Part shown: piece after piece, positions 13,368-34,833 of the stretch
Layout of the letters: each line of letters begins with the position of its first letter
Numbering within the stretch: the first letter of the stretch is position 1
Assembly (NCBI GenBank): GCA_051439505.1
Contig: JBFRWI010000151.1
Location: 19,413-83,412, forward strand
From: Hormoscilla sp.
Lineage (GTDB): Bacteria; Cyanobacteriota; Cyanobacteriia; Cyanobacteriales; Desertifilaceae
Length of the DNA: 64,000 nucleotides
Reading direction: 5' to 3'
Notes under the pieces: generated by a model
Told to the model about the DNA's origin: nothing
The model's database searches: none
What the model saw: only the letters and a program-made list of their open reading frames with translations
Made by a program: the position numbers and the translations under genes

Positions 13368-13403
13368 TTGTTCTGCTATGCTACTGAGGAGTTTTATCTT
13401 GCC

Positions 13404-15065: not shown

Positions 15066-15082
15066 CCGTTATGGCCAGCCTT

Positions 15083-15319
15083 AATACTTCTCGGTTAATA
15101 ACTTGTCATTGCGAGGGGGGGAACCTAAATCAACATTGTGAGTACCTTCGCTTATATCCCCCCCCGAAGCAATCTCACCTCTGACACCAAACCGATCTTC
15201 CTCTCATACAGGGCGGGAGGATTGCTTCGGGGGGGTTAACTCGGTTGAGCATAAGTTAATCGCTATGTACCCCCCCCCTCGCAATGACAGACAGATCAGA
15301 TCCTTAACAGAGAAGTATT
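15083..15319. mobile_element. Palindromic MITE-like element (GTCATTGCGAG...GAAGCAATC...GATTGCTTC...CTCGCAATGAC core)
   Basis: TIRs AATACTTCTCGGTTAA/TTAACAGAGAAGTATT; flanking direct repeat TTATGG(C/T)CAGCCTTAA. Confidence 0.8.
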
Positions 15320-15377
15320 ATGGTCAGCCTTAAGAATCAGTATCTCAGAGAGACCGGCAAGTCCCATTACCGAAAAC

Positions 15378-15732: not shown

Positions 15733-18700
15733 ATGTCTATGAACGCCAATATTTCTCTAGAAACTTCTGCCGCTAACCTCAATAGGGCCATTTCCGAGAC
15801 CCAAGCACTCCTCAAAGCATTCGTGAGGGACGATCGCTTTCGGGTAGAGGACCTGACAAATGCCTTTCACGCGGGGGTACATGAGGAGGAGTTCTCCCAA
15901 CTGCTCGGACAGTTTGAGCTTGGGGACTTCAGCGGGTTGCCCAATATTGAGATGCGATCGCGATCGGACACCGGTGGTGCCCTGGGGGTCTACGTCGCGG
16001 ACACGGATATGATTTATCTGGCGGAGGACTTTTTGGAGAACAGCACCATCTCCCAAATTGTGGAAGTGCTGCTGGAGGAAATAGGCCACGCGATCGATGC
16101 CCGCATAAACGCTACAGATAGTGCGGGGGATGAGGGGGCGATTTTCTCGGCTTTGGTGCGCGGGGTAGATCTGAGTGAGGCCCAGTTGGAGGCGTTACAC
16201 CGGGAAAACGATCGCATCCAACTGGTGATTGACGGTCAAACAGTGATGGCAGAGGCGGCCACGATTATGGTGGATACCCTAAATGATACGGAAGATTCTG
16301 GTGATGGAGTGACGAGTTTGCGGGAAGCATTGGCCAGTGCGACCAGCGGTGACACCATTACCTTTGATTCTGGGGGAACGATTACTCTGGGGGGATCCCA
16401 GTTGGAGATTACGAAGGATGTGACGATCGATGGCGATATCGATAATGAAGGTACGCCGGATATCACTATTGATGCCGATGGTCAAAGCCGCGTGTTTAAT
16501 ATTGATGATGGAAGCACCACACAGATTGCCGTGTCCTTGGAGGGTCTGACGATAACGGGGGGTAGCATCTCGGGAAATGATGATGGTGGTGGGATTTACA
16601 ACAGCGAATCTCTCAGCATAACTAATAGCACGATTAGTAATAACTCGACTGGAACTGGAAATAATCCCCGCGGTGGGGGCATTAACAATAATTCGGGTAT
16701 AGTGGTCATCACCAATAGCACGATCAGCGGCAATTCGGCAGGTGCTGATGGTGGGGGAATTGAGAATTTTCTGGGTACGATGACCATCGCCAACAGCACG
16801 ATAAGTAACAATTCGGCGGCAGGTTATGATGGTGGGGGTATTGATAATATTGTGGGTACGATGACCATCGCCAACAGCACGATAAGTGGCAACTCGGCAG
16901 GTGATGATGGTGGTGGGGTTAAGAACAGTGGTATGATAACCATCACCAACAGTACGATAAGTGGCAATTCGGCAGGTGATGATGGTGGTGGGGTTAACGT
17001 TAGCAGCAGCGGCCTAAGCGGATTCATTCCCTATGCCTATCTGGCTAGTACGATCGTGGCAGACAACACTGCTGGAATCAGTGATAACGATCTTTTTGTT
17101 GATGCGAGTGGCACGATCAGTGCTAGGAACAGTCTCATAGAAAGGGACTCTGACCAAATTAACGGCACGAACACTGACAATATTACTGGAGTAGACCCGC
17201 TTCTGGACCCCAATGGATTGCAAGATAACGGCGGTTCGACAGAGACGATCGCCCTCCAATCTGATTCGCCAGCGATAGATACTGGCAGCAACCCGAATGG
17301 TTTAACTAGCGACCAGCGGGGGGATAATTTGCGGGAGTTCGGGGCCGGGGTTGATATCGGCGCGTTTGAATATCAGCTCCAGATCGCCAGCATTTCAGAC
17401 TATACAGCGACTATATACGAAACCAGTGCTGACTTTGGCAAAGCCCTGGCTCTTGACGGTGATGAAGATTATGTGGCCTTACCGGAACTGGGATTCTCAG
17501 GAGGAAATACCAGTGTTTCTGTTTCTGCATGGTTTAAGGTCAACGAGTCTGCCGGAGAGAGAAACAATATATTTGGCTTTGGTCAGGATGGCTCGACCCG
17601 TGAGACTTTCTCTATTCGTACCAGAGGAGATGGTGGCTTCCGTTTTTACTTCTGGGGAGATGACCTGGATGTAGATGTAGATCCTTATTATGGAGAATGG
17701 ACCCATGTAGCCGCCACCTACGATGATACTAGCGAAATGCAATCGGTATACGTGAATGGCAGCTTGGCGGGCGAACGCCAGGTTAGCAGTACACCGAATT
17801 TTGCCAATAAAAGTTATCGCATCGGCGGTTTCAACGATGAATATTTTGATGGCAGCATTGATGAAGTGCGGATTTGGGAGGCGGCCCTCACTGCCGAAGA
17901 AATACAGGATAATCTCTACAGCCCCCTCACTGGTACGGAAAAAGACCTGGTGGCTTACTACAGCTTTGAGGATGATGCTACGACGATCGCGGATCAAAGT
18001 GGCAATGAAAATAACGGGACTCTCCAAGGCGGTGCGTTTGATGAATCTTTGTCTTTTATAGGCTACGTGGACCTGGAACTCAGCAGTGAAGTCTTTTCGG
18101 AGCCGGGAATTATCGTTAATTATACGATCGAGAGCGATACGGCATCAGAGGGAGATGACTTCTATCAATCCCAGTTGGATATCAGCACTACCGATGGAGT
18201 TGACCCCACTAACTCGATTTTCATTCCCCAAGGAGAAGATACGGGCCGGATTTATTTGACCGCCCTGCCCGATGCGATCGCGGAAGACGACGAAGAATTA
18301 ACCCTGCGACTGGTTTCCGACTTTGACGATGCCCTATCTCTGGATGGGGATGGAGATTATGTAGATGTCCCTGATGGAACCTGGTTTAATGGAGATTTGA
18401 CCATAGAAGCTTGGGTATATGTACGCAACTATAACAATTGGTCGCGCCTCCTAGATTTTGGCAATGGTCGAGCCGATGATAATGTGTTGGTTGCCTTGTC
18501 GAATGGTACGAGTGGACAACCTCGTTTTGGTGTTCATCTTGGTGATGACCCAAGCAATTTAGAATCCCCAGTTCAACTGCCACTGGACAGTTGGAGTCAT
18601 ATTGCAGTTACTCTCAGCAATACCACAGGCATTATGTACATCAACGGCGAACAGGTAGCCATTAATGAGGCTATGAATATTCCCGCTGGTGAGACACGCA

Positions 18701-21700: not shown

Positions 21701-24700
21701 TTAGCCGTTTTGGACGACCGGGAAGCAGTGAAAGATACTTTGGTGGGGAGGTAGACGAACTCAGAGTTTGGAACGTCGTGCGCACGGCATCCGAAATCCA
21801 GAATAACCGCTTTCTAAGCCTCACTGGCAACGAATCTGGCTTGGTTACCTACTATACCTTTGATGAAAGCAATAATGGGACGATCGCCGATGGCAGTGGC
21901 AATGGCAACGATGGCACGCTCCAGGGAGCCCCGAGTTTCGCTCCTTCCCTTCTTCGCAACAGGGTCACCGCTGATGAAGAGACTACGAGCGGTTCATCCC
22001 TGGCAGATCCTGGAGATACTCCCTTTACCATCGGCGCATCTCTCAACAATAGCAGTTTCTTTGATGGGGCGATCGACAACCTGGCCATATGGGATCGAGC
22101 CCTCACCCAAGAGGAAGTGGAAAGCCTGACCTACCAAACCCTTACCGGTGCGGAAGATAATCTAGTCTTCTACAGCGACGGGGAGACCCTCCAAGGGGAC
22201 GCAACTCTGGTCACTTCTAGTCTGGAAGACAGTGGTTTCAGCCAGAACATTGTCGAGTTTGCCCCTGGTGAAACAACGGCGGAAGTGGGCATATTGCCAA
22301 TAAATGGAGATGACATCGACAGCAATACAAATGATGACATCACCTTAACCCTGGAAGGCAGTAATTCCGTCCTTTACGAGCTAACCACCAGCAGTGCCGA
22401 AATTCAGTTGGAAGAGGATGATGAAGTCGGGATAATCTTCGCAACCCTGACAGAACAAGGCATCCTGGACGATCGGGCGATCGCAGACCTGATAGATATC
22501 GAACTGCTGACCTTTAACTCTTCGGATGATGGGACGACGGCGACGGCGAACTTCCGAGTCCGCCTCACCGAAGATCCAACGGCAGAGGTGACAGTTACCA
22601 TAACTGATGGGAATGGCACGGACAGCACCTCATTTACCTTTGACAGCACCAACTGGGATGACTATCAACAGACGGATACGAATAGCAACCTGGATCTAAC
22701 ATTCGATTCCAGTTATCTGGTGAACGTCTCCGCCAGTAGCACCGATACATCCGATACAACCTATAACATCAATGCCATGTCCCTGCCCCTGACGGTAGCA
22801 GAGCAAGCAACGGAGATATCGGAGCTATTCACAAAGGAAGCTGATGTGACGGTAACGACGACAACAATAGATATAGAGTTTGCTGATGCAACAGATCTAA
22901 CTGTCACGGCGGACAGCCTGGACACGGTGAATCTTCAGATTAGTGCGAGCGCGTCCTTCACCAGTGCGACCCTGATAGAAGGTCAGACCCTAGAGTTTGA
23001 TGGGGGAGTGGAACTGATCGTCGAGGAAAATACAGATATTACGAACGCTCCCACTCCGGTGAATGTCTCTGTCAGCACCGGGGGGACGATCGCCACTACA
23101 GATGTGGCGGCGGAAATCCCATTAATCGCAACAATAGAGCTAGAGTTTGCTGATGCCACAGATCTAACTGTCACGGCGGGCAGCGTGGAAACGGTGAATC
23201 TTCAGATTATGGCTAATTCGTCCCTCACCAGTGCGACCCTGACACAAGGTCAGACCCTGGTGTTTGATGGGGGAGTGGAACTGATCGTCACCGAAGATAC
23301 AGATATTACGGACGCTCCCACTCCGGTGAATGTCTATGTCAGCACGTCCGGGACGATCGCCACTACAGATGCGGCCTCAATCACAACAACAGAAGAAACC
23401 ATAACCACCACGAGTACGTACAGCACCACCTTTGCAGTGGGACTTCAGAGCGAACCCACTAGCGATGTTACCTTTGACCTGGAGATTAACGATGCTGGTA
23501 CCAATGAAGGAATTTTTGACTCGGACACGACAACCAGGAGCCTGACTTTCACCCCTGATAACTGGGATAGCTATCAAGAAGTGACGCTTTATGGGGTTGA
23601 AGACCATGAGGTAGATGGAGATCAAACCTACAGCATCAGCGTTACGAATGTAAGTAATAACGATGGCCCGTATGAGAGCGAGACTGGTACCCTCTCAGTC
23701 ACCAATGAGGACATAGATGAGGCGGTGGAGGAACTGGACTCCGACGAAAGCAGTTTAATCAGTGGCGACATTGTCGCGAGCTTTACTCAGAGCAAGGTAG
23801 AAGTAAATGAAGACGGCACTGTAGACACGACTTTCACCGTCAGCCTAAGCGAAGAAGCCCCCGCAGGGGGACTAATTGTCAACTTTGAATTTGTCGAGGG
23901 TCTGGGGACAGCTACCCTGGGAGAAGATACTCAAGTACTGTTTTCCCTGGCCTCGGTAGACAATTTCCTGGGTGAGGTAGAAGTCAGTCCTGAGTTTGGT
24001 GCTCAGCCAGTATTTGTGGATATTGATGGTGATGGGGATGAAGATGCTTTCATTGGCAGCTCTAAGGATAATGGGGGGGTGACGTTTTTCCAAAATCAAG
24101 GCACCCGGGACATCCCCAGCTTTGAGGAAATCTCTAATGGTGAGGCGAACGAGATCACTGGAGATCTGATATCCTTGACGGCCAGTAGCGGAGCACTAGC
24201 GTTCGTAGATCTAGACGGCAATGGTGTCTTTGATGCCTTGACCTCGGAAGCAGATCCTGCTGATGCGATAGATGCGATAGATGCGATCGCCGAAAACCTG
24301 GGAAACTTGAGAATCCCCATGTTTGTTGATTCATCGACCTCCAACAATTCCCTGGAGAACATTATCGGGAACTCTTCGACATCCAGCGATATCCCACCAG
24401 TTCCAGCCTTTGTGGATATCGACGACGATGGGGATGAAGACCTGTTTATCACCTTAGTAGAACAAGATACCGAAAAGATCGTCTACTACATCAACGATGG
24501 CAGCACCGACGACCCCTTCGGCAGCGCTACTAGCAATGACTTTAATGATTTGTTAGCTGATGGCCAGGCAGCCATATCATCGGAGATAGAAGGCAAGTCG
24601 ATCGTCTTTGAAGACATAGATAACGACGGGGACTTCGATGCTTTCATCGGGAAGAACTCAGGGGAGATTGTCTATTACGAGAATGTTCCTGATGAGGAAG

Positions 24701-27700
24701 GGATGGCCGAATTCCAACTGAAGACAGAAGAGTCCTTTCTGCTAAGGAATGTAAATATTGGCAGTACTAGCCGACTGGCCTTTACGGACATAGATTCTGA
24801 CGGGGATGTAGATGCCTTTGTTGGCAGCGGTGAGGGCTACGTGACCTTTTACGAAGGGGGTATCGGACAAATCCTGATTCCCGAAGAGGCAACTGAGGTC
24901 ACGGTAGACCTGAACGAACTGATTATAGATGATGCGATCGCCGAAAACACCGAAACATTTGACATAGAACTCCTGGCGCACATCGGCAAAGCGACCCTAA
25001 GGGTGGTCCGCAATTATAACCCCACGGATGGTACGATCGGACTGCAACTGACGGACGAAGACAATGCATTAGCCTCTACAAGCTATACCATTCCAGCAGG
25101 ATCCCATCTGAGCTTTACCGTGGGAGGGGAGATAGTAACCATAGCGCCAGTGTCCGATGTTACCCTCACCCAAGACACCCAATTCGATATCGAAGTAACG
25201 GTGTCCGAAGGGGATGCCACGAGTCTAAGCGCGAATTCCAGTAACCCCATCACGACGGTCTTCGATGTCACGGACTACGAAGTTGACGAAACAGCCAAGA
25301 CCCTCTCGGTGACGATCCTAGACGACGACGAAGCCCTTGTTAATATCAGCGAAACGAGCTTCACCACGAGTGAAAATGGAACAACATCAAGCAGCTTTAC
25401 GGTGACTCTGGACAGCGAACCGACGGAACCAGTCACGGTTTACCTGGGCACGAACGATACCAGTGAAGGACTCTTAGCCCAAACAGTGGATTTGCAAATC
25501 ACTGAAGCCTACGACTCTAGCACCGGTGAAATCGGCTTGCGGATAGACAACTCCGGCATCTACGGCCTGGTATTTGATGCGGGTAGCACCCTAGTCTTTG
25601 GCGATGGCAGCACGGCGACAGTGAGTGAAACGACGATCGTCTACAACTCCGACGAAGGAGCAGATGTGCCGATAACAGGGGATAGCGCCGATCTGACTAA
25701 TATCGCTAGCCTGGCAGAAGAAGATGACACGGGCAGCCTTGTAGGGGAGTTGGATGTCACGGGCAGCCTTGTAGGGGAGTTGGTGGAACTCGGCTTTGAC
25801 GCCACGAACTGGGATGAGGCCCAAACAGTCACCATCATCGCTCAAGATGACGACGTGGAGGATGGCGATATCTCCTACGAGATCCGCAGTACCGTTGTCA
25901 GTGCTGACATCAAGTATCACGAAGATACGGTGCCCCTGGAAGTATTGGCCTACGATGCCAGTACGGCCACGGTAACGGTGCAGATCGATAGCCTGCGGGT
26001 GCGCGAGACTACCCTGGCAGCGGGCACCTCTTTGAAGTTCGCCAACGGCACCATCGCCACGGTCGATAGTGATAGTGCTGTAGAACTGAGCAATACAAGC
26101 TCTACTGAGGTAAGCTTGACTCTGGATACCGCAGCCTTAGGCGCAGGAGCAGTCAGTACGGGATTGGTCAGCAACGCCGACAGCGACAACGTCAGTGCTG
26201 AGGTGCGGGTCACTCAAGCCTACGATCCCAACACCGGAACCATTGGTTTGGAACTGGTAGATCCGGGGAATCTGCGCCTGGAATACGATGCGGGCACCAC
26301 GATAATCTTTGAGAATGGAGCAACCATTACCCTTGACGACGCGGTCTCCGTGCGCAGCACCAATGAAAAATTAGTCAGCGTTACCCTGAACGCATCTAAT
26401 GTCACCATTCCAGTTGGAGAAACCACGCGCTTCACCGAAAGCATCTCCTCAGACATTACGGTCACTAACAGCGATGACGATACGGCAGGGGTGACGATCG
26501 CGATTAACGGGGATGCCTTAGCTGAAGGAGTGGAGAATAATTTCTTCAGCGTGGTGCTGAACAGCGAACCTACTGGAGAGGTAAATCTGATCCTGAGTCC
26601 ATCGGACAACGAAATTCAGTTAGAAGACGAATTTGATGGAACGCGCTACACGGCAACCTTTGACGAGACCAATTGGAACATACCTCAAACCATTGAGGTA
26701 ACGGCAGTAGATGACTTTGAAATCGAATACAACCACTCCTCCACCATTACCTTTGACCTGGAAAGTGACGATGATTTCTATAACGAAGATAGCCTCGTAG
26801 CAGATAAAGAAGTCCAAATCTTCATCGAAGACAACGACTTTCCCGTTGCCAATGTAGAAGCAGTTGCAGGGGCGATCGAAGCGAACGCCCCGGGGTACTT
26901 CGCCATCACCCTTAACCAGGCGGTCTCCGATGACTTTGATAGCACGGGTATCGTCGTCAACTACCGTATTAGCGGCACGGCAGATGCCGATGGGGATGAA
27001 ACGAACGAAACCGATGACCTGCAACCGATTTCTGGGTCGGCCCGCATCGCCCCCGGTCAAAGGAGCAGCCCGTTAATTGCTTTCCCGATCGACGACTTCA
27101 AGGTAGAGGGGGTTGACCTCATTGTTAATAGCGCAGCTACGATTACTAGCGGCGGCGGTGCGATCGAGCTGGAAATAGATGTCTTTCCCTTCATGGGGAG
27201 TTACACTGCCGGGGCAGACACCATCGAGTTGCAACTAGACACCAGTTCAGATGATGAGGTGAAGACGATCCTTTCCGGTGGCACGACCTTAATCTTGCCT
27301 AATGGTGAAGTAACGGTGGCAACGACCGCGATCGTCAGTAACCAAGAGAGCACGATAGTCGAGCTGAGCGAGACTGACAGCAATAGTTTCTCGGATAGCT
27401 CAGTTTACCAGCAGATAGACCTGCCAGCGGGAACTGAATTGAAATTGGGCGATCGCACTGTCAGCGTGAGGGAGGACGCAACCGTCACTAACGAAAGCAG
27501 CACGTCAGTTACGGTTGAATTTGCCGACGATCTCACCGACGCTCTGGATGTGGCCGATGGTGACACCACTCAATTGCAGGGAGAGATCGTCACGGTCACC
27601 TTAGACAGCGGAGATAACTATGAGATCGGTGATGCTGATTCGGCCAGCATGACGATCCAAGATAATGACAAGCCTGGGGTGCGAATTGTGGAAATAGGAG

Positions 27701-30700
27701 GGGTTACCACAGTTGAAGAAGGAGCCTCATCTGGCAGCGAGTTCTTTGTTTCCCTGCTGAGTCAACCCGAAAGCGAGGTCGAACTCACCCTCAGCAACAG
27801 TACTAGCAATAGCGCCAATCTCAATGTTCTCAGCTATGACGGCTCGAATATCGCGCTACAAGTCGCAGATACAGAGGATATAAGTGCCCTCACTCTCCCC
27901 GTTGACGCCACTTTAACCTTCTTTGATAGCAGCGGTAGCGAGTTGGGCACGGGCACCATTGACAACGAGTTTTTCGTTGATGACACCGACGAAGGTACGA
28001 CAGACGAAGCGACAGAGACCTTAACCACCAGCGACGATCTCAGCACTGCCTCTACTGCCACCTACAGCTACACCGAGTTTTCATTCCCAGAGGGAAATGA
28101 CAATGATAGTGATGACATCAACGAGGAAATCACTCTCACCTTCGATTCCACGAACTGGTACGAACTCCAGTCAGTGACGGTGTTTGGAGAAGATGATAAC
28201 GTCGTGGAAACCGGAGATTTTCATACTAGCAACATCGAGTACTCTGCCACCGGAGATCCCACATACGCAAATCTCACTATTGCCGACCAAAGCATCCGGA
28301 TAATCGATCGGGTCTTGGAGAAAGAACAAACGATCGAGGCCCTAGCGGAAGGGTTCCTAGCAGTGCAAGACACCCTGGATAATCTGGAATTGCCGATCGT
28401 GGGCCAGATGGGGGTATTCGGTATCTTTGACGAATTTTTGAACGAACTGGTGGATGCCTTAGAGGCACAAGAATATATCACCGCAGATGTTCTGGCTGAA
28501 ACTATAGGGGATACGATCACCGCTCAGTTGGGGGTAGACGAACTGACAGTTGAAGTGACAGACCTTTCCGACACGAATGTCGCTTTGCTGCTCAGCTATG
28601 AGGATACTCTGGAAGAGGCGATCGCCCTAGATACGGACCTGGGCCTGCCAGCATTAGGACTGGGGATTGAAACTAGCGGGGATCTGGAACTGACCCTGGA
28701 CTACGACCTAGACCTGGCCTTTGGCATCAACAGCGACGATGGGTTCTATCTGGATATTTATAGTGAGGAAACTGACGAAGATAACGATGGCGAAACGGAC
28801 AATGTGGGGACAAGCTTGACCGCCAACGCATCCCTGGCCCTGAGTAATGAATTTACGGCCACGGGCAACATGGCATTCCTACAGGTGGATTTTGCCAACG
28901 GTCTTGACAGTGGTAACTCTACCTCAGGTACAAATATCAGTGCCGAGATCGATGCTAGCTTCCAGAATCCCAACAATGCCAACGACAAAACCCTGACCTT
29001 GAGCGAACTGACGGATTTACGCGGCACGAGCAACATTTTCGACTTCCTCCAGTATGAATTGGATGGAAGTGCCGCCATAGACTTCCTCGTGACCACCTCC
29101 GTAGAAGGGGATACCCAGTTCCCCTCTCTCAGCTTCAACTTGGAGTCAGAACTGAACCCGTTGTTCAATGCCGCTAACAACTCAGAGACCTCAACTCTCA
29201 GCGAGTTCACGATTGACTTCACTGAGATCCAAATGGACTTCGGCGAATTCATTTACAACATGGTGGGTCCGATAATTACAGATGTCAACGACTTCCTGGA
29301 TGAGTCGGGTCTGGTGGACGTGATTGAGTTCCTAACCGAGGAGATCTCCCTCATAGAAACCCTGGATCTGGTAGATGACTTCGATCGGGACGATGACGGT
29401 GGGGTGAACGTGCTGGAACTGGCCCTGACGATCGTGGAAGCAACATCGGATCTGGAGGATCCGAAATATCAGGAGTTCTTTGATGCGGTACTGCTGATCG
29501 CAGACACGGCGGACCTGATCGTAGATACCCTGGAAAATTTTGAGAACGAGGGAGCTATTTTACTGAACTTCGGCGAGTATTCTTTTGACTTCAATGCAGC
29601 AGACTCTAATAACGACACCAGCAGCCTAGATCCAGAAGAGGAACAGAAAGAAGAGGATACTTTAAACGACACTGCCCTGTCAACAGCGGAAGACGACCTC
29701 GAAAACTCAACCGAGAACGACTCTCTGTTCGAGGTGTTCGACAAGATGGATGAACTGGGAATCAGCTTCCCTCTATTGGAAGACCCCTTCACCATCATCA
29801 ATCTCTTCTTCGGCCAAGATGTAGACCTGGTGACCTACGACGTGCCCGAACTCGACCTAGAGTTTCCCTTGTCAGCAGAATTTCCGATTTTCACGGGCAT
29901 CAATGGTGTTTTGGAAGGAAGTCTGGCAGTGTCCTCAGATCTGGAAGTTGGGTTTGATACCTTTGGCTTTAGTCAATGGGAAGAGACCGGGTTTGACATC
30001 GAAGATTCCTACCTGATACTGGACGGGATCTACCTGAACGATCTCGACGACGAGGGCGAAGACGTGCCGGAGTTGGAATTGAATGCGACGATCGCAGCGG
30101 GGGTAGAGGTAAATGCAGTGGTGGCGAGCGTTAAAGCTACTGGCGGACTGGAAGGGTCAGCGGAATTAGATGTAGTTGATGAAGGGCAATATACCGGCCA
30201 AAGCGATGGGAAATTCCGCATCTCAGAGCTGGTGAACGGTTTGAGTAACCCCCTATCCTTGTTGGAACTTTCCGGGGAACTGGCAGCCTTCCTGCGGTTG
30301 GTGGTGAAAGTAGGGATTGATGTGGGTTTATTCGAGGTCACGAAAAAAGTTTTGGATGAAGAACTGGCGCGGGTAACTCTGTTTGAATTCACCCTGGGTG
30401 GAGATACGACGAGTGGAGATTCATCGGGCAGTTACATTGCCGATGGGACAGTATTTTTTGATGGCAACTTCAACCAGAAATTGGACCCCACCGAACCCTT
30501 TACCACCACGGATGCCTACGGTCACTACGTCTTGGAAATTCCCCCATCCTTCGATCTCAACTCCGATGGCGTTATAGACGAGATCGACGGTCAACTGGTA
30601 TCGAGGGGCGGGGTGGATAGTTCTAGCGGGGTATCGGCAGGCACCTTAATAGCCCTGCCGGGTTCGACAATTATTTCTCCCCTCACGAGTCTGAAGGCAG

Positions 30701-33700
30701 AACTATATCAACTGGATCTGGATCCCGATGCAGCAGAAACCCTGGTCTTAAATCAACTGGGACTAGAAGGCATCATCGATCTAGATAGTTTCGACGCCCT
30801 GGAAGCGGTCGGATCTAACGAAGAACTGGGTCTGGATACCTATCTAAATCACGTCAAAATCCAAGCCCTATTTAACAATGCCCGTGGTTTTTTGCACGGC
30901 CTGCAACAAGCTGACCCCACCCTGGCAGTAGATGGCAACAACCTGCAAAATGTTCTCGAAGCAGTTGCTCAGTTCTTTATCGATCGCCCGGCCACGGAAC
31001 CATGGGATCTCAATGATATGGCAGAGGTGCGGCCTTTCTTCCAGTTCCTGGTCGATCGCAATGAGGTTTCAGCAACAGCAGCACAGATTGATGCTATAAC
31101 TCAAATCGTCACTGACAGCAACAGTTTCCTAGATGAAGCTACCGCCGTCGCCCAACCCTTGGGTTTAACCAGTACCATCCCGGTTATAGCTTCGGTCAAG
31201 CGGGTCATGCAAGGAGATTTACCCGCGATCGCGCGACAATTGGGCAACGGCAACTTTACCCCCCCAGATGCCCTGGCAGAATTCGACAGCACGATAAATC
31301 AAAACTACGTGCTGGTGGATGCAGACATCAACGCCTTTGGCAACCGCAGCGTGGATATTACGGTGGATGCAGACAGCGTCAACGAAAATGAAGGGGCGAT
31401 CGCTCAATTTAGCATCAACCTGAGCGATCCGGCTCCCAATCAGGGATTGAACCTATTCTATGCCATCGACGGCACGGCATCTGAGGGCCAAGACTATGAC
31501 TTGCCAGGCACTGGGACGGGTCAACTGTTCGTGGCCCCTGACGAAACCCAGGTCACCATTGACGTGACCATCTTAGATGACAATGCCTCGAAAGGATTGG
31601 AAGCTTTAACCTTAACTCTGGTGACCGTGGGAGAAGGTTACCTGATCGATCCCTTGGGAAGCAGCGCCACTCTGCGCATCATCGATGACGAACCACCGCT
31701 AGAAGAATCCCTGCTGGATCTGAGCGATGTGATAGAAGGGACGATCGGCAATGATAACTTAACAGGAACAGAAGATTCAGATTGGCTTGACGGCAAAGAG
31801 GGCAATGATGAGATCGCGGGGGAAGGCAGCAGCGATTTGATCTTCGGCGGCTATGGTTTGGATATATTGAGCGGTGGTGACGGCAATGACGTAATTCTGG
31901 GCCACTATGGGGACGATAGCCTGTTCGGAGAAGCAGGGGACGACGAACTGCGAGGTGGTTCGGGGGGAGATTTCCTAGATGGAGGGCCCGATAATGACAT
32001 TATCAATGGCTTAGAAGGACCCGATCGGCTGTTTGGGCGTTCCGGCGCCGATCGGCTGATTGGGGGTCAAGCGATCGATCTGTTAGACGGCGGTTTCGAC
32101 AACGATATACTCGAAGGGGGTTCCGGTGCCGATCTGATAATTGGCGGTCCGGGAGACGATCTGTTCATTGGCGGGGACGACAACGATTTGTTCGTGCTCA
32201 ACTTACCCAACCAAGGGTTCGATCGCATATTCGACTTTGACCCTGATGAAGGGGATGTGATTTATATAGTCGATTCCAGTTCCACCGTGACCCTCGACCA
32301 GTTGCGCTTCGTGAATGGAATCTTGGATCTAAACGGAGAGAATCTGGCGTTGATCCAAAATGAAGACCAAACCTATGCCTTCTTCCCGAATTTAGAGGGG
32401 ATAATTCAGATTGTATCTGAGTTGCCACCTGTACCGACCAATCCAGGTGGACCGGGTGGTCCCGGACAAGGTGGTCCCGGACAAGGTGGTCCCGGACTTC
32501 AACCCCAGGTTGCCGATAAAGTTGTCACCGAAGGGCTAGCAGATGACCCGGCGGACCTCAGTCAAGACCTGTTGACCCAAATATTAGATCGGGGCTGGGT
32601 GCGAGTGGCCATTACCGAATTCACCAATGGCTACAACCGGGAATTAGCATCAGGATTAGCAGCAGCTTTATTTGGCGACCCAACTGCTATAGAATTCGCG
32701 ATCCTCCCGGAAACAGAAATCTTGGCAGCGGTAGCGTCGGGCCACGTAGATATCTCCTACGAACTCTTCACTCCTACTCTGGAAAGTGATGCCGCTGAGG
32801 GCATAGATTTTGGCCCCAACGTCTTCTACAACAGCCAGGTAATTCTCTTTAAGCCCGATGCTGGCATTACCGATGCTTTTGACTTAGAGGGCAAAAATAT
32901 GGGCATAGTGCGAGACTCAGCAGGTTTAAGGGAACTGAATCAACTGTTGAGTGACAATTCTATTAATGCCAATCCGATCTTCTTTGACTCCCTCGACGAT
33001 TTGGTGAGGGCTTATGATGATGGAGAGGTAGACGCGATCGTCCAAGACTATGAGAGCCTGCGACGCTTTAATACCTTCAGCAATGCAAATTCTTTCAACT
33101 TCCTGGATTTAGATCTAGCGGTGGAGCCCAAGGCCCCAGTCATAGCCGAAAATCAATCGCCATGGGCGGACGTGGTGCGATGGGTTTCTCAAGTGCCAAG
33201 TCAGGCAGAAGAACTAGATATCTTCTCGCGCAACCTGGAACGCTTTGTCTCTAACAGTACCGACGATCGCATTCGTCGTTTCCTCGGTAACAGCGGTAAC
33301 TTGGGAGAACAGTTGGGCGTCCGCTCCGACTTTGCCTTCCAGGTACTAGATGCTGTAGGGAATGCCGAAGACTTGTTTATCGATCGCTTTGACATCCGCC
33401 ACCGCAACCGCAATCATCTATGGATTAACGATGGTTTGGTGTATGGGGCTCCCTTCTCGGACACCGACCAGACAGGAGAGTTGTTAGACAATGACTCGCG
33501 CGATGTCCTGGCAGAAGTGCGGGCCCGAGGAAGGGTCAACTTTGGGATAGTGGGCGATCGCGTGGGCTTCTCTGCCGAGGCCAACGGCGAACTGACGGGA
33601 TTTGATGTTGACTTGGGCAAAGCACTGGCCGCCGCCGTATTTGGCGATGCTACCGCTGTCGAATTTATCGAGCAGGGTGTTAATTCGGGCGATCGCCTGC

Positions 33701-34833
33701 TTTCTGTAGCCAATGGCGCGGTAGATGTAGCCACGGCCAGTCACACCTTGGGGCGGGATGCATCATTAGGAGTGGACTTTAGCCCGGCCTATCTGTACAC
33801 GGAACTTGGGGTACTGGTGCGCACCGAGTTGGCAATTAGTTCCACCGCAGGACTGAATGGTTTGACGATCGGCTTCGTAGAAACCGATGACGTGACGACA
33901 TTAAGGGAGAGTTTGGAGCAGCTCAATGTTAGCTTTGCAGAGCGGATGTTTGAGAGTGACGATGCCCTATTTGCCGCCTATGACAATAGCGAGATCGATG
34001 CCGTTGCTCAAGATGCAACTGCTCTAGCAGCTCGCATACCCACTCTGAGCGAGCCCGACGCGCACCAACTGTTCGATGATGAATTTATTGCCAAAATGCC
34101 CTTGGCACTGGCAACGGATGAAAATCAATCGGCATGGGCTGACGTGGTGCGTTGGGTGGTCTATACTCTGGTGAAAGCCGAAGAGTTGGGCATTACTGCA
34201 GACAATGTTGACCAATTGCTTACCTCCGACAATGTTTCCGACGAAGTGAGCTCCTTCTTGGGTATTACGGGAGATGCGGGAGCAGCACTGGGTTTGAGCA
34301 ACGACTTTGCCGCCAACATTATCCGCACGGTGGGCAATTATGCCGAGATTTACAACCGCCACTTTGACTCCTCCATCCTGCGGCGCGATCGCAATGAGTC
34401 CTTCGAGGAGTTCGGGGTGCAAATTGCTCCTGCAACTAGCGATGCATCTTCGTCAGCTCCAGGAGATATTATCCTAGACATTGACGGCAATGGGGTTGTA
34501 GGTGCCTTCAGCGACGGTGTTTTAGCTTTGCGTTATCTGGACGGGGAAACTGGTGACGCTCTCATTGATGGGGCGATCGCGCCTGATGCTGCTCGCAATG
34601 CTGACGAGATTATCGACTACCTAAACTCGATACGGGATACGGTACTAGATGTGGACGGTAACGGTATGGCAGAGGGCCCGACAGATGGCATTCTGTTCTT
34701 CCGCTATCTGACAGGTCTCACAGGTGATGCTCTGATTGATGGGGCGATCGGTCTTGGTGCCACCCGCACCGCTGCGGATGATATTATCGCCCACTTGGAA
34801 TCCTTCATTATGCCCACTCTGAACGACATCTGA
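15733..34833 (+). CDS. Giant (6366 aa) Ca-binding surface/adhesin-like protein: EEIGH N-domain, CSLREA/beta-helix/choice-of-anchor-Q, LamG x6, Calx-beta, FG-GAP, RTX, two amino-acid SBP domains, dockerin-like tail
   Basis: Uninterrupted ORF; DGVTSLREAL, LQDNGGSTETIAL..DSPAID, FDG.IDE.RIW, DIDGDGD.D, GG.G.D nonapeptides, WADVVRWV...AEELGI twice, DIDGNG..G..DG.L..RYL twice. Confidence 0.92.
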   Translation: MSMNANISLETSAANLNRAISETQALLKAFVRDDRFRVEDLTNAFHAGVHEEEFSQLLGQFELGDFSGLPNIEMRSRSDTGGALGVYVADTDMIYLAEDFLENSTISQIVEVLLEEIGHAIDARINATDSAGDEGAIFSALVRGVDLSEAQLEALHRENDRIQLVIDGQTVMAEAATIMVDTLNDTEDSGDGVTSLREALASATSGDTITFDSGGTITLGGSQLEITKDVTIDGDIDNEGTPDITIDADGQSRVFNIDDGSTTQIAVSLEGLTITGGSISGNDDGGGIYNSESLSITNSTISNNSTGTGNNPRGGGINNNSGIVVITNSTISGNSAGADGGGIENFLGTMTIANSTISNNSAAGYDGGGIDNIVGTMTIANSTISGNSAGDDGGGVKNSGMITITNSTISGNSAGDDGGGVNVSSSGLSGFIPYAYLASTIVADNTAGISDNDLFVDASGTISARNSLIERDSDQINGTNTDNITGVDPLLDPNGLQDNGGSTETIALQSDSPAIDTGSNPNGLTSDQRGDNLREFGAGVDIGAFEYQLQIASISDYTATIYETSADFGKALALDGDEDYVALPELGFSGGNTSVSVSAWFKVNESAGERNNIFGFGQDGSTRETFSIRTRGDGGFRFYFWGDDLDVDVDPYYGEWTHVAATYDDTSEMQSVYVNGSLAGERQVSSTPNFANKSYRIGGFNDEYFDGSIDEVRIWEAALTAEEIQDNLYSPLTGTEKDLVAYYSFEDDATTIADQSGNENNGTLQGGAFDESLSFIGYVDLELSSEVFSEPGIIVNYTIESDTASEGDDFYQSQLDISTTDGVDPTNSIFIPQGEDTGRIYLTALPDAIAEDDEELTLRLVSDFDDALSLDGDGDYVDVPDGTWFNGDLTIEAWVYVRNYNNWSRLLDFGNGRADDNVLVALSNGTSGQPRFGVHLGDDPSNLESPVQLPLDSWSHIAVTLSNTTGIMYINGEQVAINEAMNIPAGETRTQNYLGRSNWSSDADADALFDDVRIWDVARTEEEIKANRYNTLVGDEDNLVAYYRFDDGYVSIATTEDATVEDVTGNGNDGKFRGDATITADNSDRNNVLTLDGDGDYIELPNLELSGDTSVSVSAWINVNAGAEDRNNIFGFGNAGENGEVFSIRTRGDGSFRFYFWADDLDVNVNDYYGTWTHVAATYDATSGMQSVYVNGSLVGEPRVATPDFANDNYRIGGFNDEYFDGSLDDVGIWNKALNSEEIDDIINNNITEDGLLAYYDFDKYRVQDATGNGNDGIFYGGVTEESVYNDPFSIDGEGPTYEVDSAQSATITIADSNAYTPGVIVADLFNDEISSDQTENLINIIDDSWEFQVKLASEPTEDVTIDLSTTLGNLDTNSLTFTSDDWTRYQTVTVTNFSSEAAFDLSVTATSNDANYSSAETIAITPTDEVLKLAVTEGGTTQEAPIIPVGVDGTSNAIEDSDEPGIFTITLGDEAPEEGLRIPFSVTSDTDTDFEVVGDEFSLNEAFTFDGVDDYIEFSDSSVGGAFDGGSSAFSITGWINPDALGSTVLANASSSAAGNIELGIDASGNLNLTLDTDADTDTTLNLGNGAIAAGDWQFFGLTLDDSNNGLELDGIDDYVELNPIPATIAAGEALTIEHWIKPDATDAQILFYTGDNTDENGFNGNGSHLHTGINSGGSFTFVYDDDDNDLILIADTSLNAGQWYHLAVSFELGSSDADGELKMYIDGEQVTFEGGQSSLAINSLATTNLDFSRFGRPGSSERYFDGEVDELRVWNVVRTASEIENNRFVSLTGNEPGLVTYYTFDERDDGTIADGSGNGNDGTIEGSPSFAPSLGTVTAYINQPDESNNALELDGIDDYVELNPIPATIAAGEALTIEHWVKPDATDAQILFYTGDDTDENGFNGPGSHLHTGINNGGSFTFVYDDDDNDHILIADTSLNAGQWYHLAASFELGSDDEDGELKMYIDGEQVTFNGGQSSLAIDSSATTALNFSRFGRPGSSERYFGGEVDELRVWNVVRTASEIQNNRFLSLTGNESGLVTYYTFDESNNGTIADGSGNGNDGTLQGAPSFAPSLLRNRVTADEETTSGSSLADPGDTPFTIGASLNNSSFFDGAIDNLAIWDRALTQEEVESLTYQTLTGAEDNLVFYSDGETLQGDATLVTSSLEDSGFSQNIVEFAPGETTAEVGILPINGDDIDSNTNDDITLTLEGSNSVLYELTTSSAEIQLEEDDEVGIIFATLTEQGILDDRAIADLIDIELLTFNSSDDGTTATANFRVRLTEDPTAEVTVTITDGNGTDSTSFTFDSTNWDDYQQTDTNSNLDLTFDSSYLVNVSASSTDTSDTTYNINAMSLPLTVAEQATEISELFTKEADVTVTTTTIDIEFADATDLTVTADSLDTVNLQISASASFTSATLIEGQTLEFDGGVELIVEENTDITNAPTPVNVSVSTGGTIATTDVAAEIPLIATIELEFADATDLTVTAGSVETVNLQIMANSSLTSATLTQGQTLVFDGGVELIVTEDTDITDAPTPVNVYVSTSGTIATTDAASITTTEETITTTSTYSTTFAVGLQSEPTSDVTFDLEINDAGTNEGIFDSDTTTRSLTFTPDNWDSYQEVTLYGVEDHEVDGDQTYSISVTNVSNNDGPYESETGTLSVTNEDIDEAVEELDSDESSLISGDIVASFTQSKVEVNEDGTVDTTFTVSLSEEAPAGGLIVNFEFVEGLGTATLGEDTQVLFSLASVDNFLGEVEVSPEFGAQPVFVDIDGDGDEDAFIGSSKDNGGVTFFQNQGTRDIPSFEEISNGEANEITGDLISLTASSGALAFVDLDGNGVFDALTSEADPADAIDAIDAIAENLGNLRIPMFVDSSTSNNSLENIIGNSSTSSDIPPVPAFVDIDDDGDEDLFITLVEQDTEKIVYYINDGSTDDPFGSATSNDFNDLLADGQAAISSEIEGKSIVFEDIDNDGDFDAFIGKNSGEIVYYENVPDEEGMAEFQLKTEESFLLRNVNIGSTSRLAFTDIDSDGDVDAFVGSGEGYVTFYEGGIGQILIPEEATEVTVDLNELIIDDAIAENTETFDIELLAHIGKATLRVVRNYNPTDGTIGLQLTDEDNALASTSYTIPAGSHLSFTVGGEIVTIAPVSDVTLTQDTQFDIEVTVSEGDATSLSANSSNPITTVFDVTDYEVDETAKTLSVTILDDDEALVNISETSFTTSENGTTSSSFTVTLDSEPTEPVTVYLGTNDTSEGLLAQTVDLQITEAYDSSTGEIGLRIDNSGIYGLVFDAGSTLVFGDGSTATVSETTIVYNSDEGADVPITGDSADLTNIASLAEEDDTGSLVGELDVTGSLVGELVELGFDATNWDEAQTVTIIAQDDDVEDGDISYEIRSTVVSADIKYHEDTVPLEVLAYDASTATVTVQIDSLRVRETTLAAGTSLKFANGTIATVDSDSAVELSNTSSTEVSLTLDTAALGAGAVSTGLVSNADSDNVSAEVRVTQAYDPNTGTIGLELVDPGNLRLEYDAGTTIIFENGATITLDDAVSVRSTNEKLVSVTLNASNVTIPVGETTRFTESISSDITVTNSDDDTAGVTIAINGDALAEGVENNFFSVVLNSEPTGEVNLILSPSDNEIQLEDEFDGTRYTATFDETNWNIPQTIEVTAVDDFEIEYNHSSTITFDLESDDDFYNEDSLVADKEVQIFIEDNDFPVANVEAVAGAIEANAPGYFAITLNQAVSDDFDSTGIVVNYRISGTADADGDETNETDDLQPISGSARIAPGQRSSPLIAFPIDDFKVEGVDLIVNSAATITSGGGAIELEIDVFPFMGSYTAGADTIELQLDTSSDDEVKTILSGGTTLILPNGEVTVATTAIVSNQESTIVELSETDSNSFSDSSVYQQIDLPAGTELKLGDRTVSVREDATVTNESSTSVTVEFADDLTDALDVADGDTTQLQGEIVTVTLDSGDNYEIGDADSASMTIQDNDKPGVRIVEIGGVTTVEEGASSGSEFFVSLLSQPESEVELTLSNSTSNSANLNVLSYDGSNIALQVADTEDISALTLPVDATLTFFDSSGSELGTGTIDNEFFVDDTDEGTTDEATETLTTSDDLSTASTATYSYTEFSFPEGNDNDSDDINEEITLTFDSTNWYELQSVTVFGEDDNVVETGDFHTSNIEYSATGDPTYANLTIADQSIRIIDRVLEKEQTIEALAEGFLAVQDTLDNLELPIVGQMGVFGIFDEFLNELVDALEAQEYITADVLAETIGDTITAQLGVDELTVEVTDLSDTNVALLLSYEDTLEEAIALDTDLGLPALGLGIETSGDLELTLDYDLDLAFGINSDDGFYLDIYSEETDEDNDGETDNVGTSLTANASLALSNEFTATGNMAFLQVDFANGLDSGNSTSGTNISAEIDASFQNPNNANDKTLTLSELTDLRGTSNIFDFLQYELDGSAAIDFLVTTSVEGDTQFPSLSFNLESELNPLFNAANNSETSTLSEFTIDFTEIQMDFGEFIYNMVGPIITDVNDFLDESGLVDVIEFLTEEISLIETLDLVDDFDRDDDGGVNVLELALTIVEATSDLEDPKYQEFFDAVLLIADTADLIVDTLENFENEGAILLNFGEYSFDFNAADSNNDTSSLDPEEEQKEEDTLNDTALSTAEDDLENSTENDSLFEVFDKMDELGISFPLLEDPFTIINLFFGQDVDLVTYDVPELDLEFPLSAEFPIFTGINGVLEGSLAVSSDLEVGFDTFGFSQWEETGFDIEDSYLILDGIYLNDLDDEGEDVPELELNATIAAGVEVNAVVASVKATGGLEGSAELDVVDEGQYTGQSDGKFRISELVNGLSNPLSLLELSGELAAFLRLVVKVGIDVGLFEVTKKVLDEELARVTLFEFTLGGDTTSGDSSGSYIADGTVFFDGNFNQKLDPTEPFTTTDAYGHYVLEIPPSFDLNSDGVIDEIDGQLVSRGGVDSSSGVSAGTLIALPGSTIISPLTSLKAELYQLDLDPDAAETLVLNQLGLEGIIDLDSFDALEAVGSNEELGLDTYLNHVKIQALFNNARGFLHGLQQADPTLAVDGNNLQNVLEAVAQFFIDRPATEPWDLNDMAEVRPFFQFLVDRNEVSATAAQIDAITQIVTDSNSFLDEATAVAQPLGLTSTIPVIASVKRVMQGDLPAIARQLGNGNFTPPDALAEFDSTINQNYVLVDADINAFGNRSVDITVDADSVNENEGAIAQFSINLSDPAPNQGLNLFYAIDGTASEGQDYDLPGTGTGQLFVAPDETQVTIDVTILDDNASKGLEALTLTLVTVGEGYLIDPLGSSATLRIIDDEPPLEESLLDLSDVIEGTIGNDNLTGTEDSDWLDGKEGNDEIAGEGSSDLIFGGYGLDILSGGDGNDVILGHYGDDSLFGEAGDDELRGGSGGDFLDGGPDNDIINGLEGPDRLFGRSGADRLIGGQAIDLLDGGFDNDILEGGSGADLIIGGPGDDLFIGGDDNDLFVLNLPNQGFDRIFDFDPDEGDVIYIVDSSSTVTLDQLRFVNGILDLNGENLALIQNEDQTYAFFPNLEGIIQIVSELPPVPTNPGGPGGPGQGGPGQGGPGLQPQVADKVVTEGLADDPADLSQDLLTQILDRGWVRVAITEFTNGYNRELASGLAAALFGDPTAIEFAILPETEILAAVASGHVDISYELFTPTLESDAAEGIDFGPNVFYNSQVILFKPDAGITDAFDLEGKNMGIVRDSAGLRELNQLLSDNSINANPIFFDSLDDLVRAYDDGEVDAIVQDYESLRRFNTFSNANSFNFLDLDLAVEPKAPVIAENQSPWADVVRWVSQVPSQAEELDIFSRNLERFVSNSTDDRIRRFLGNSGNLGEQLGVRSDFAFQVLDAVGNAEDLFIDRFDIRHRNRNHLWINDGLVYGAPFSDTDQTGELLDNDSRDVLAEVRARGRVNFGIVGDRVGFSAEANGELTGFDVDLGKALAAAVFGDATAVEFIEQGVNSGDRLLSVANGAVDVATASHTLGRDASLGVDFSPAYLYTELGVLVRTELAISSTAGLNGLTIGFVETDDVTTLRESLEQLNVSFAERMFESDDALFAAYDNSEIDAVAQDATALAARIPTLSEPDAHQLFDDEFIAKMPLALATDENQSAWADVVRWVVYTLVKAEELGITADNVDQLLTSDNVSDEVSSFLGITGDAGAALGLSNDFAANIIRTVGNYAEIYNRHFDSSILRRDRNESFEEFGVQIAPATSDASSSAPGDIILDIDGNGVVGAFSDGVLALRYLDGETGDALIDGAIAPDAARNADEIIDYLNSIRDTVLDVDGNGMAEGPTDGILFFRYLTGLTGDALIDGAIGLGATRTAADDIIAHLESFIMPTLNDI
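20542..21950 (+). repeat. Near-identical intragenic duplication of a LamG module (723-bp period)
   Basis: 20542-21227 vs 21265-21950 match over most positions at DNA level. Confidence 0.9.
22864..23371 (+). repeat. Intragenic 267-bp tandem duplication
   Basis: ACAATAGA..TAGAGTTTGCTGATGC...GACGATCGCCACTACAGATG at 22864 and 23131. Confidence 0.85.

What the first reader, a model, noticed from the sequence alone, without database searches (positions are those of the whole stretch)
15733..34833. 6366-aa surface protein combining adhesin, lectin-like and nutrient-binding modules
Seen: one very Asp/Glu/Thr-rich ORF without an evident signal peptide. Order: EEIGH N-domain, CSLREA beta-helix, six LamG, many Calx-beta-like domains, FG-GAP repeats, a ~700-aa unassigned region (about 28320-30400), RTX repeats, two SBP domains, dockerin-like end. 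Known: RTX nonapeptides mark type I secretion substrates. No T1SS genes are in this window. Inference: with the adjacent regulators, a regulated surface system for attachment to a host or partner, or for sheath/biofilm building.
Basis: partly seen in the sequence, partly recalled or inferred. Interest (0 to 1): 0.8.

Follow-up and report, generated by a model that had tools for sequence, protein, structure and literature searches.

The report
Cyanobacterial giant adhesin carrying transporter domains
A marine-sediment cyanobacterium encodes an intact 6,366-residue leaderless protein, likely a calcium-stiffened surface adhesin, whose far end carries two copies of an amino-acid-transporter binding domain that appear to have been repurposed for work outside the cell; the same unstudied module recurs in giant proteins of several cyanobacterial lineages.

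Summary
The ORF is real and intact (6,366 aa, no Cys, no signal-like segment). Coverage is even, and strains from two other studies differ by in-frame gains and losses of whole modules. Additions: two LamG domains are nested inside a third; the N-domain is predicted to be a zincin fold with EExGH for HExxH; the ~720-aa gap is an unnamed amphipathic beta-sheet domain found in giant ORFs of 26 of 301 cyanobacterial genomes. The architecture is not unique: an RTX–SBP–SBP cassette recurs in 23 other retrieved proteins (Microcoleus, Scytonema, Trichodesmium, Capilliphycus), one of 6,571 aa with nearly the same layout. These SBPs form their own clade, apart from lipoprotein AapJ-type uptake proteins. 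SBP2 keeps the presumed carboxylate-binding Arg (18 of 18); SBP1 is eroded. After the cassette comes an RTX tail (14), DUF4114 (7), or here a dockerin-like module shared by 26 ORFs of this genome. HlyB, HlyD and TolC-like genes lie on other contigs. Best reading: a type-I-exported giant adhesin with a distal ligand-binding cassette (about 55%); export, binding and function are untested.

The parts
12720..13367 (+). Response regulator (receiver domain plus NarL-like tail), possibly linked to the giant gene
   Evidence: Pfam Response_reg; orthologue upstream of a giant homologue in G016
13368..14699 (+). Membrane histidine-kinase-like protein
   Evidence: weak HATPase_c, below cut-off; adjacency tested
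15080..15325 (.). ~240-nt palindromic repeat element (REP/MITE-like), dispersed in the genome; probably unrelated to the system
   Evidence: 165 blastn hits, 69 of at least 150 nt, on 98 contigs; folds as a long hairpin
15733..34833 (+). Giant leaderless acidic surface protein, 6366 aa
15733..16260 (+). N-terminal zincin-like domain with EExGH in place of HExxH (aa 1-176)
   Evidence: AF2 pLDDT 87; top fold matches all zinc peptidases, best Z 7.5, rmsd 4.2, 125 aligned; E115, E116, H119, D122, N126 invariant in 79 of 79 loci
16261..17376 (+). Predicted beta-helix with choice-of-anchor Q end (aa 177-548)
   Evidence: NF041518 at aa 488-548; repeats D4/D6
17455..19449 (+). LamG1-3 (aa 575-725, 871-1025, 1092-1239) with a weak Calx-beta between LamG1 and LamG2
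   Evidence: PF13385
20251..22119 (+). LamG4 split in two, with LamG5 and LamG6 (723-nt repeat unit) inserted inside it
   Evidence: profile positions 1-95 at aa 1507-1608 and 105-150 at aa 2084-2129; repeat D1; one unit fewer in run X13
22861..23376 (+). Two Thr-rich 89-aa repeats, copy number variable between strains
   Evidence: repeat D3; one unit fewer in X13, an extra one in X5
23995..24858 (+). FG-GAP-like repeats (predicted beta-propeller)
   Evidence: PF13517, three stretches
24859..28269 (+). Calx-beta/Ig-like extender stalk (FxxxNW repeats with inserts)
   Evidence: self-similarity; Pfam weak or absent
28270..30432 (+). Unnamed ~720-aa domain of long amphipathic beta-strands and helices, a marker of cyanobacterial giant proteins
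   Evidence: 26 of 301 genomes; AF2 pLDDT 74, pTM 0.58; no whole-domain fold match; strand faces
30433..31689 (+). Conserved 'YIADG' region and Calx-beta domain preceding the RTX block
   Evidence: shared with homologues; PF03160 over cut-off
31720..32412 (+). RTX nonapeptide repeats and capping segment
   Evidence: PF00353, 5 stretches
32545..33462 (+). SBP1, AapJ-like family-3 solute-binding domain, eroded (Arg replaced by Ser, lid loop lost)
   Evidence: PDB 4z9n E 3.4e-31
33484..34428 (+). SBP2, AapJ-like domain keeping Arg, Ser for Thr, and Asp of the presumed amino-acid site
   Evidence: PDB 4z9n E 2.4e-44
34471..34806 (+). C-terminal dockerin-like module (two ~57-aa repeats with acidic Ca-type loops)
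   Evidence: Atlas 0.97 'Dockerin domain' cluster; 26 ORFs in this genome; 6 of 301 cyanobacterial genomes

Best explanation
This is an intact 6,366-residue leaderless, acidic, RTX-bearing cyanobacterial protein that is likely exported C-terminus first by the genome's type I secretion system and likely works as a calcium-stiffened surface adhesin whose distal tandem SBP cassette would grip amino acids or peptide ends on substrates, matrix or neighbouring cells. Shown: the anatomy, the recurring RTX-SBP-SBP cassette, the separate SBP clade, the T1SS genes elsewhere in the genome, and in-frame module turnover between strains. Inferred: (1) export by HlyB/HlyD/TolC, with the signal in the last ~60 residues of the dockerin-like end; (2) Ca2+-driven folding of RTX, Calx-like and FG-GAP units into an extended stalk carrying LamG glycan-binding heads; (3) SBP2 binds an alpha-amino/alpha-carboxylate ligand while SBP1 is mostly structural; (4) the N-terminal EExGH zincin-like domain, last to leave the cell, acts as retention or release module, a slot filled by DUF4347 in relatives; (5) the upstream two-component pair regulates it.
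For: No Cys, K 0.9%, pI about 4, no hydrophobic leader; PMC3034196 (passages) gives acidity and lack of Cys for RTX S-layer proteins and a ~60-residue uncleaved C-terminal T1SS signal. HlyB over cut-off beside HlyD on C53; TolC-like OEP on C135/C175. Relatives without SBPs end at RTX plus cap (L011, L013, L016, L019). Of 24 proteins with the tandem-SBP cassette, 14 end in a second RTX tail, so these SBPs travel in RTX-terminated proteins. 56 fused SBP domains lie on one side of a branch with support 100, apart from 25 canonical AapJ-like proteins including this genome's own two lipoprotein copies beside permeases. Second SBP: Arg 18 of 18, Thr/Ser 17 of 18, Asp 16 of 18; first SBP: Arg 11 of 18. 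[quoted passage not shown] SBPs can act as adhesins: weak match to PRK11917 'bifunctional adhesin/ABC transporter' (below cut-off) and PEB1 2v25. All 7 strain joints inside the gene whose intervening letters are given have net lengths divisible by three (my arithmetic). EExGH domain: first copy N-terminal in 118 of 120 top hits, 109 of 120 with RTX motifs.
Against: No experiment on export, location or binding. In this copy no RTX tail is at the C-terminus, and the dockerin-like module is N-terminal in 6 of 26 ORFs, which argues against it being a pure T1SS signal. No LapG (PF06035) found in the 93%-complete genome and the N-domain does not resemble a LapA plug in the fold search; 12 of 120 relatives carry a second, internal EExGH copy, which a plug would not need. 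Window SBP2 has lost the GTT and KEP motifs kept by most relatives. The 40 strain differences shown (of 968) are 29 non-synonymous to 11 synonymous: no sign of purifying selection in that subset. The canonical SBP group was picked by the RNTT motif and the tree is a quick search without bootstrap. The Arg/Thr/Asp roles rest on recalled family-3 SBP structures, not on a ligand-bound model.
Confidence: 0.55

Rival explanations
1. Structural coat or anti-grazing armour (SwmB/oscillin-like) or released mat-matrix protein; the SBP domains are decaying passengers or spacers with no ligand role.
For: SBP1 eroded across the family; window SBP2 divergent; many giant relatives lack SBPs altogether; giant proteins of marine Synechococcus are linked to motility and grazer defence (PMC9387257, text part 1).
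Against: SBP2 keeps Arg in 18 of 18 across distant genera, with higher within-group identity (54%) than canonical AapJ-like proteins show among themselves (44%); the tandem SBP also exists as short RTX-SBP-SBP proteins, three in this genome.
Confidence: 0.22
2. Extracellular nutrient trap: the tethered SBPs capture dissolved amino acids or peptides at the cell or sheath surface and raise the local supply for the periplasmic AapJ-type uptake system.
For: Core amino-acid site kept in SBP2; four genes with the cassette in this genome; canonical uptake operon on C102; sediment and mangrove habitat.
Against: No permease beside any fused copy; a binder outside the outer membrane has no obvious hand-over route and would compete with uptake; the rest of the protein is adhesin-like.
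Confidence: 0.13
3. Contact-dependent antagonism or delivery protein: the zincin-like domain is an autoprocessing peptidase and the amphipathic ~720-aa domain inserts into membranes or carries lipids.
For: Zincin fold; internal EExGH copies in 12 relatives, three of which also carry a lipase domain; long amphipathic strands with partial barrel matches; releasing metallopeptidases are known in polymorphic toxins (PMC3482391, passages).
Against: No toxin domain or immunity-like neighbour; first zinc ligand His is Glu; the polar faces of the strands are strongly acidic and no whole-domain match to a pore former.
Confidence: 0.07
4. Assembly chimera joining an adhesin gene, an ABC-transporter SBP gene pair and a dockerin gene.
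For: Draft genome of 232 contigs; no contig or long read spans the gene; depth of the independent runs is low over the RTX-SBP linker.
Against: Even depth and no joints in X1; strains from two other studies cover 28 and 30 of 30 bins; the cap-to-SBP junction recurs in 4 of 250 other genomes, one a single-contig genome; P0136 has nearly the same layout; fragment P0158 has SBP followed by the dockerin-like module; GC3 0.51-0.59 along the gene, like its neighbours.
Confidence: 0.02

Closest known systems
Giant RTX adhesins (LapA, MpIBP, BapP-type)
   Same: Leaderless, acidic, Ca-binding RTX and Calx/Ig extender repeats, candidate ligand-binding domains near the distal C-terminus
   Different: No LapA-type plug seen, no LapG found, T1SS genes not adjacent, RTX block 870 aa from the end, SBP cassette and dockerin-like end instead of an RTX tail
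Cyanobacterial giant and RTX surface proteins (SwmA, SwmB, oscillin, Sll1951)
   Same: Very large secreted or surface proteins in cyanobacteria, most of unknown function (PMC3034196, PMC9387257)
   Different: Sequence comparison with them was not done; none is described with LamG, the ~720-aa domain and tandem SBPs in the passages read
AapJ/BztA-type amino-acid ABC substrate-binding proteins (PDB 4z9n; PEB1 2v25 as moonlighting adhesin)
   Same: Fold family and core Thr/Arg/Asp positions in SBP2
   Different: Separate clade, no lipoprotein signal, tandem, fused behind RTX repeats, no adjacent permease, RNTTW motif replaced
NCBI 'transporter substrate-binding domain-containing protein' / 'DUF4347 domain-containing protein' entries (WP_413168053.1, WP_190665576.1, WP_155746486.1, MGF1498211.1)
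   Same: Same YIADG-Calx-RTX-cap-SBP-SBP cassette (RTX-SBP-SBP in WP_155746486.1); MGF1498211.1 (6571 aa) has nearly the same overall layout
   Different: Automatic names only; they begin with DUF4347 or other modules and end in an RTX tail, DUF4114 or a peptidase, not EExGH and the dockerin-like module
Zincin metallopeptidases (deuterolysin 1eb6, SPRTN/Wss1, minigluzincins)
   Same: Predicted fold of the N-domain; weak SprT-like matches in 44 of 80 members
   Different: EExGH instead of HExxH; no match with Z of 8 or more; activity unknown
Dockerin type I
   Same: Duplicated segment with acidic Ca-type loop and helix; Atlas cluster named dockerin
   Different: Repeats of ~57 aa; no Pfam Dockerin_1 hit; no cohesin found in the genome

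Membership tests
RTX / T1SS substrate | Gly/Asp-rich nonapeptide repeats | tested here: met
   PF00353, E 1e-27, 5 stretches
RTX / T1SS substrate | No N-terminal signal peptide; acidic, Cys-poor | tested here: met
   (hydropathy only, no SignalP)
RTX / T1SS substrate | RTX repeats directly before a C-terminal secretion signal | tested here: not met
   RTX ends at aa ~5490; the tail HMM finds no C-terminal copy here, but does in 14 of 24 family members (eight of those seeded the HMM)
RTX / T1SS substrate | HlyB, HlyD and TolC in the genome | tested here: met
   on other contigs
RTX / T1SS substrate | Export depends on the T1SS | not testable with these tools
   needs mutants and exoproteomics
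LapA/MpIBP retained adhesins | N-terminal retention module | tested here: inconclusive
   N-domain matches zincins; no retention module among the listed rows
LapA/MpIBP retained adhesins | LapG protease in the genome | tested here: inconclusive
   PF06035 not found; genome 93% complete
AapJ-type ABC uptake SBP | Family-3 SBP sequence | tested here: met
AapJ-type ABC uptake SBP | Sec/lipoprotein signal and permease/ATPase operon | tested here: not met
   fused internally; no permease beside this gene or the C21, C27, C169 paralogues, unlike the C102 copies
AapJ-type ABC uptake SBP | Ligand-binding Thr/Arg/Asp core | tested here: inconclusive
   SBP2 Ser/Arg/Asp, SBP1 lacks Arg; residue roles recalled; binding not tested
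Zincin metallopeptidase | Zincin fold | tested here: met
   top 20 VIA rows are zinc peptidases or zincin-like proteins, Z 5.0-7.5; individually middling scores
Zincin metallopeptidase | HExxH motif | tested here: not met
   EEIGH; EExGH in 79 of 79 loci and 126 of 132 domain copies by regex
Dockerin (cellulosome-type) | Duplicated Ca-binding loop-helix repeat | tested here: met
   alignment of 24 copies from this genome; Atlas 0.95-0.97
Dockerin (cellulosome-type) | Pfam Dockerin_1 match and a cohesin partner | tested here: inconclusive
   no PF00404 hit; PF00963 not found in the genome; a divergent partner is not excluded

The most novel reading that the evidence does not exclude
Cyanobacteria have turned an ABC-transporter amino-acid-binding protein into a dedicated exported clade, displayed in tandem at the tip of giant surface fibres as a ligand-sensing grip or nutrient trap, on a modular chassis whose ends are interchangeable: an EExGH zincin or DUF4347 self-release domain at the N-terminus instead of LapG control, and an RTX tail, DUF4114 or a dockerin-like module at the C-terminus, the last serving as export or anchoring tag for about twenty leaderless non-RTX proteins of this genome.
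Probability: 0.25. Interest if true: 0.75.

Novelty: new variant of a known kind. Interest (0 to 1): 0.52.

Why it matters
Cyanobacteria have more RTX proteins than most bacteria and the function of most is unknown (PMC3034196). This gene defines three small, separately expressible and so far unnamed units that recur across mat- and bloom-forming genera: an exported AapJ-derived SBP clade, an EExGH zincin-like N-domain (1,705 database hits) and a ~720-aa amphipathic beta domain. If SBP2 binds amino acids or peptides outside the cell, solute-binding proteins have a fixed, non-transport role in adhesion or scavenging, and current 'transporter' annotations of these giants are misleading. If the N-domain self-cleaves, it would explain how cyanobacteria release surface adhesins without LapG.

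Tried and rejected
Homologue search with RTX+SBP+dockerin was swamped by RTX repeats and gave nothing useful. Self-BLAST printed no rows; replaced by phmmer. Cellulosome-like scaffold: no cohesin found. LapG: not found. The ~720-aa domain: Atlas hits were unnamed clusters with low recognition, no PDB sequence match of note, no Foldseek match at E 0.001 or better, only partial small-barrel matches, best Z 9.6 over 83 residues, rmsd 2.0; the model has pTM 0.58 and was not folded in parts, so a new fold is not claimed. N-domain: no PDB sequence match, no Foldseek match at E 0.001 or better. DUF4347 as a caspase-like peptidase is my recollection plus the visible HG...GC motif; a PDB search did not confirm it and the paper read does not say so. 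A duplicated key mislabelled one Thr column; recounted. Synteny with four congeners: RR-HK, the giant gene and the cyclase were not found at the thresholds used and gene order is not kept, so no insertion site could be defined. RNA run X13 holds contigs across the gene, but contigs cannot show transcription and no silent control was laid. No complex prediction was run: no candidate partner. Literature searches that found no description of the cassette or motifs: 0 papers; 0 papers; the library lacks most subscription journals.
Full report
Observation. The ORF at 15733-34833 is there, 6366 aa, Asp/Thr/Glu-rich, nearly Lys-free and without Cys, with no hydrophobic leader. Phycobilisome linker, bilin reductase and CpeT genes mark the host as a cyanobacterium; the genome is a 6.47-Mb draft in 232 contigs, 93% complete. 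Runs holding the gene are marine sediment and mangrove. Run X1, possibly the source, covers 30 of 30 bins at depth 194-315 with three differences and no joints; X3 is of the same study; X5 and X13 come from two other studies, are mostly 90-99% alike, and cover 28 and 30 bins. All 7 joints inside the gene whose intervening letters are given change the length by a multiple of three: for example one LamG repeat fewer (net 714 nt) and one Thr-rich unit fewer (267 nt) in X13, LamG3 missing (618 nt) and an extra Thr-rich unit (282 nt) in X5 (my arithmetic). The gene is real and its modules turn over between strains. No contig or long read spans it.

Anatomy. N-domain aa 1-176; beta-helix ending in choice-of-anchor Q; six LamG domains, of which the fourth is split with the fifth and sixth, 96% identical in DNA, inserted into it; a stalk of Calx/Ig-like repeats of which only one passes the Pfam cut-off; FG-GAP repeats; the ~720-aa unassigned domain; a conserved 'YIADG' region, Calx-beta, RTX and cap; two family-3 SBP domains; a dockerin-like end.

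The body is a family chassis. The second half of the unassigned domain was found in 26 of 301 cyanobacterial genomes (own included), always in frames of 1,324-10,923 aa. Relatives such as L011 (6027 aa), L013, L016 and L019 share LamG, Calx-like or FG-GAP units, this domain and the YIADG region, and end at RTX plus cap. Its model (28 sequences, pLDDT 74, pTM 0.58) has strands up to 22 residues with one hydrophobic and one acidic face and helical inserts. No whole-domain match was found; a hydrophobic groove or barrel is my inference.

The SBP cassette. A search of 1.84 billion representatives with SBP1-SBP2-dockerin and a search among longer proteins gave 23 other proteins of 884-6,571 aa that I counted as family members; in most the order is YIADG-Calx-RTX-cap-SBP-SBP. 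Named ones come from Scytonema, Capilliphycus, Microcoleus, Elainellaceae and Trichodesmium, under automatic names. P0136 (6571 aa, partial) has nearly the window's layout. The cap-to-SBP junction was found in 4 of 250 other genomes of the order, in frames of 2,733-4,844 aa, one in a single-contig genome. What follows SBP2 varies among the 24 proteins: RTX tail 14, DUF4114 7, a peptidase-like end 1 (motif recalled as S8), nothing 1, dockerin-like 1, the window's; fragment P0158 also has SBP then dockerin-like. This genome has three shorter RTX-cap-SBP-SBP genes (C21, C27, C169) with no permease beside them, while two canonical copies with lipoprotein-type leaders sit next to permeases on C102. 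In a quick tree of 93 domains, 56 fused domains fall on one side of a branch with support 100, and the 25 canonical proteins plus 12 tandem or fused domains of other proteins on the other. Caveats: canonical rows were chosen by the RNTT motif, single-domain hits without it were left out, and there is no bootstrap or outgroup. Closest structure is 4z9n. By recalled family-3 spacing, the Thr five residues before the Arg, the Arg and a later Asp hold the amino acid's backbone groups. Second domains keep Arg 18 of 18, Thr/Ser 17, Asp 16; first domains keep Arg 11 of 18 and 12 lack the lid Phe. In the window SBP1 has lost the Arg, and SBP2 keeps it but has lost two other motifs.

The N-domain. 149 stretches in GTDB genomes encode relatives; in 78 of 79 loci it starts the frame, and E115, E116, H119, D122 and N126 are invariant (the AGDEGAIF stretch is invariant by construction, being a search pattern). 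A profile search gave 1,705 proteins; among the best 120 the first copy is N-terminal in 118, 109 have RTX motifs, and 12 have a second internal copy. The model (pLDDT 87) matches zincins consistently but at middling scores (best Z 7.5, rmsd 4.2, 125 aligned; Foldseek best E 0.05); 44 of 80 members weakly match SprT-like. It is a zincin-like domain with the first His replaced by Glu. Six cassette proteins and three chassis relatives have DUF4347 in the same slot. That both are release or retention modules is inference; LapG was not found.

The C-terminal module. Two ~57-aa repeats with acidic loops; nearest Atlas clusters are dockerin-like and mostly from Pseudomonadota. It occurs in 26 ORFs here: 19 within 26 residues of the C-terminus (18 of them without RTX motifs), 6 near the N-terminus, 1 cut by a contig end; in only 6 of 301 cyanobacterial genomes. 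No cohesin was found. Its use at both ends favours a binding or anchoring role over a pure export signal, but in this protein it occupies the place of the RTX tail.

Export and regulation. HlyB (over cut-off) and HlyD are adjacent on C53 and TolC-like genes exist. RR and HK orthologues lie directly upstream of the 3941-aa homologue in G016. Among 13 further loci picked by HK similarity, 3 have an RTX/Calx gene directly adjacent (two of one genus), one has large surface-protein genes nearby, and the rest do not show it; several contigs end close by. The link is plausible, not established.

Known and new. Giant RTX-type proteins are common in cyanobacteria and mostly uncharacterised (PMC3034196, passages; PMC9387257, part 1 of 2); distal ligand-binding domains and N-terminal retention modules are known for RTX adhesins (PMC12153261, passages). 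PMC3482391 (passages) has no EExxH; PMC13723633 (passages) lists DUF4347 in Bap-like candidates without a function; PMC8277102 (passages) was read for DevBCA. Nine searches showed no description of the RTX-SBP-SBP cassette, the EExGH domain or this dockerin-like tag in their listings; most subscription journals are not in the library and no supplements were read. The scan's own index had no note on this genome's gene or on SBP2.

Verdict. A new variant of a known kind: it likely works like a giant RTX adhesin, but fails two membership features (RTX tail at the C-terminus; it is also not an ABC uptake SBP). The size and mosaic are ordinary for cyanobacteria; the exported SBP clade and the interchangeable terminal modules are the surprising, testable parts. 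Interest 0.52.

Noticed in passing
window 15080-15325: ~240-nt palindromic repeat upstream of the giant gene; 165 blastn hits on 98 contigs, 69 of at least 150 nt; REP/MITE-like.
   Followed up: partly
G000 whole genome (e.g. C28, C41, C119, C147, C157, C163, C228): Dockerin-like module expanded to 26 acidic, Lys-poor ORFs with no evident leader, rare in other cyanobacteria (6 of 301); no cohesin found.
   Followed up: partly
L068:7635-14482 (G000 C27): Short RTX-SBP-SBP gene directly followed by a DevB/DevC/DevA-like exporter operon (naming by sequence appearance).
   Followed up: no
G000 C13:21817-24543 and C82:14342-15946: The EExGH domain also heads two proteins whose C-termini look like a lysozyme/GH19-type and an M23-type domain (by recalled motifs), candidate secreted cell-wall hydrolases.
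   Followed up: no
P0288-P0299: Twelve proteins carry a second internal EExGH domain; three also have a lipase domain (PF01764) and one a cohesin (PF00963).
   Followed up: no
window 14664-15065 (-): 133-aa ORF that repeats a stretch of the neighbouring kinase (H..PLQTLA), possibly a remnant.
   Followed up: no
window 55978-59953: Two tandem FtsH genes.
   Followed up: no
window 35238-37988 (-): GAF-GAF-PAS adenylate/guanylate cyclase convergent with the giant gene; about 80% identical in G005, where it keeps the glycosyltransferase and epimerase neighbours but no giant gene; not found in four congeners at E 1e-100.
   Followed up: partly
L024, L030 (G002, G001): Congeners hold short or broken-looking remnants of the RTX-SBP-SBP gene and a split chassis gene (L021).
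   Followed up: no
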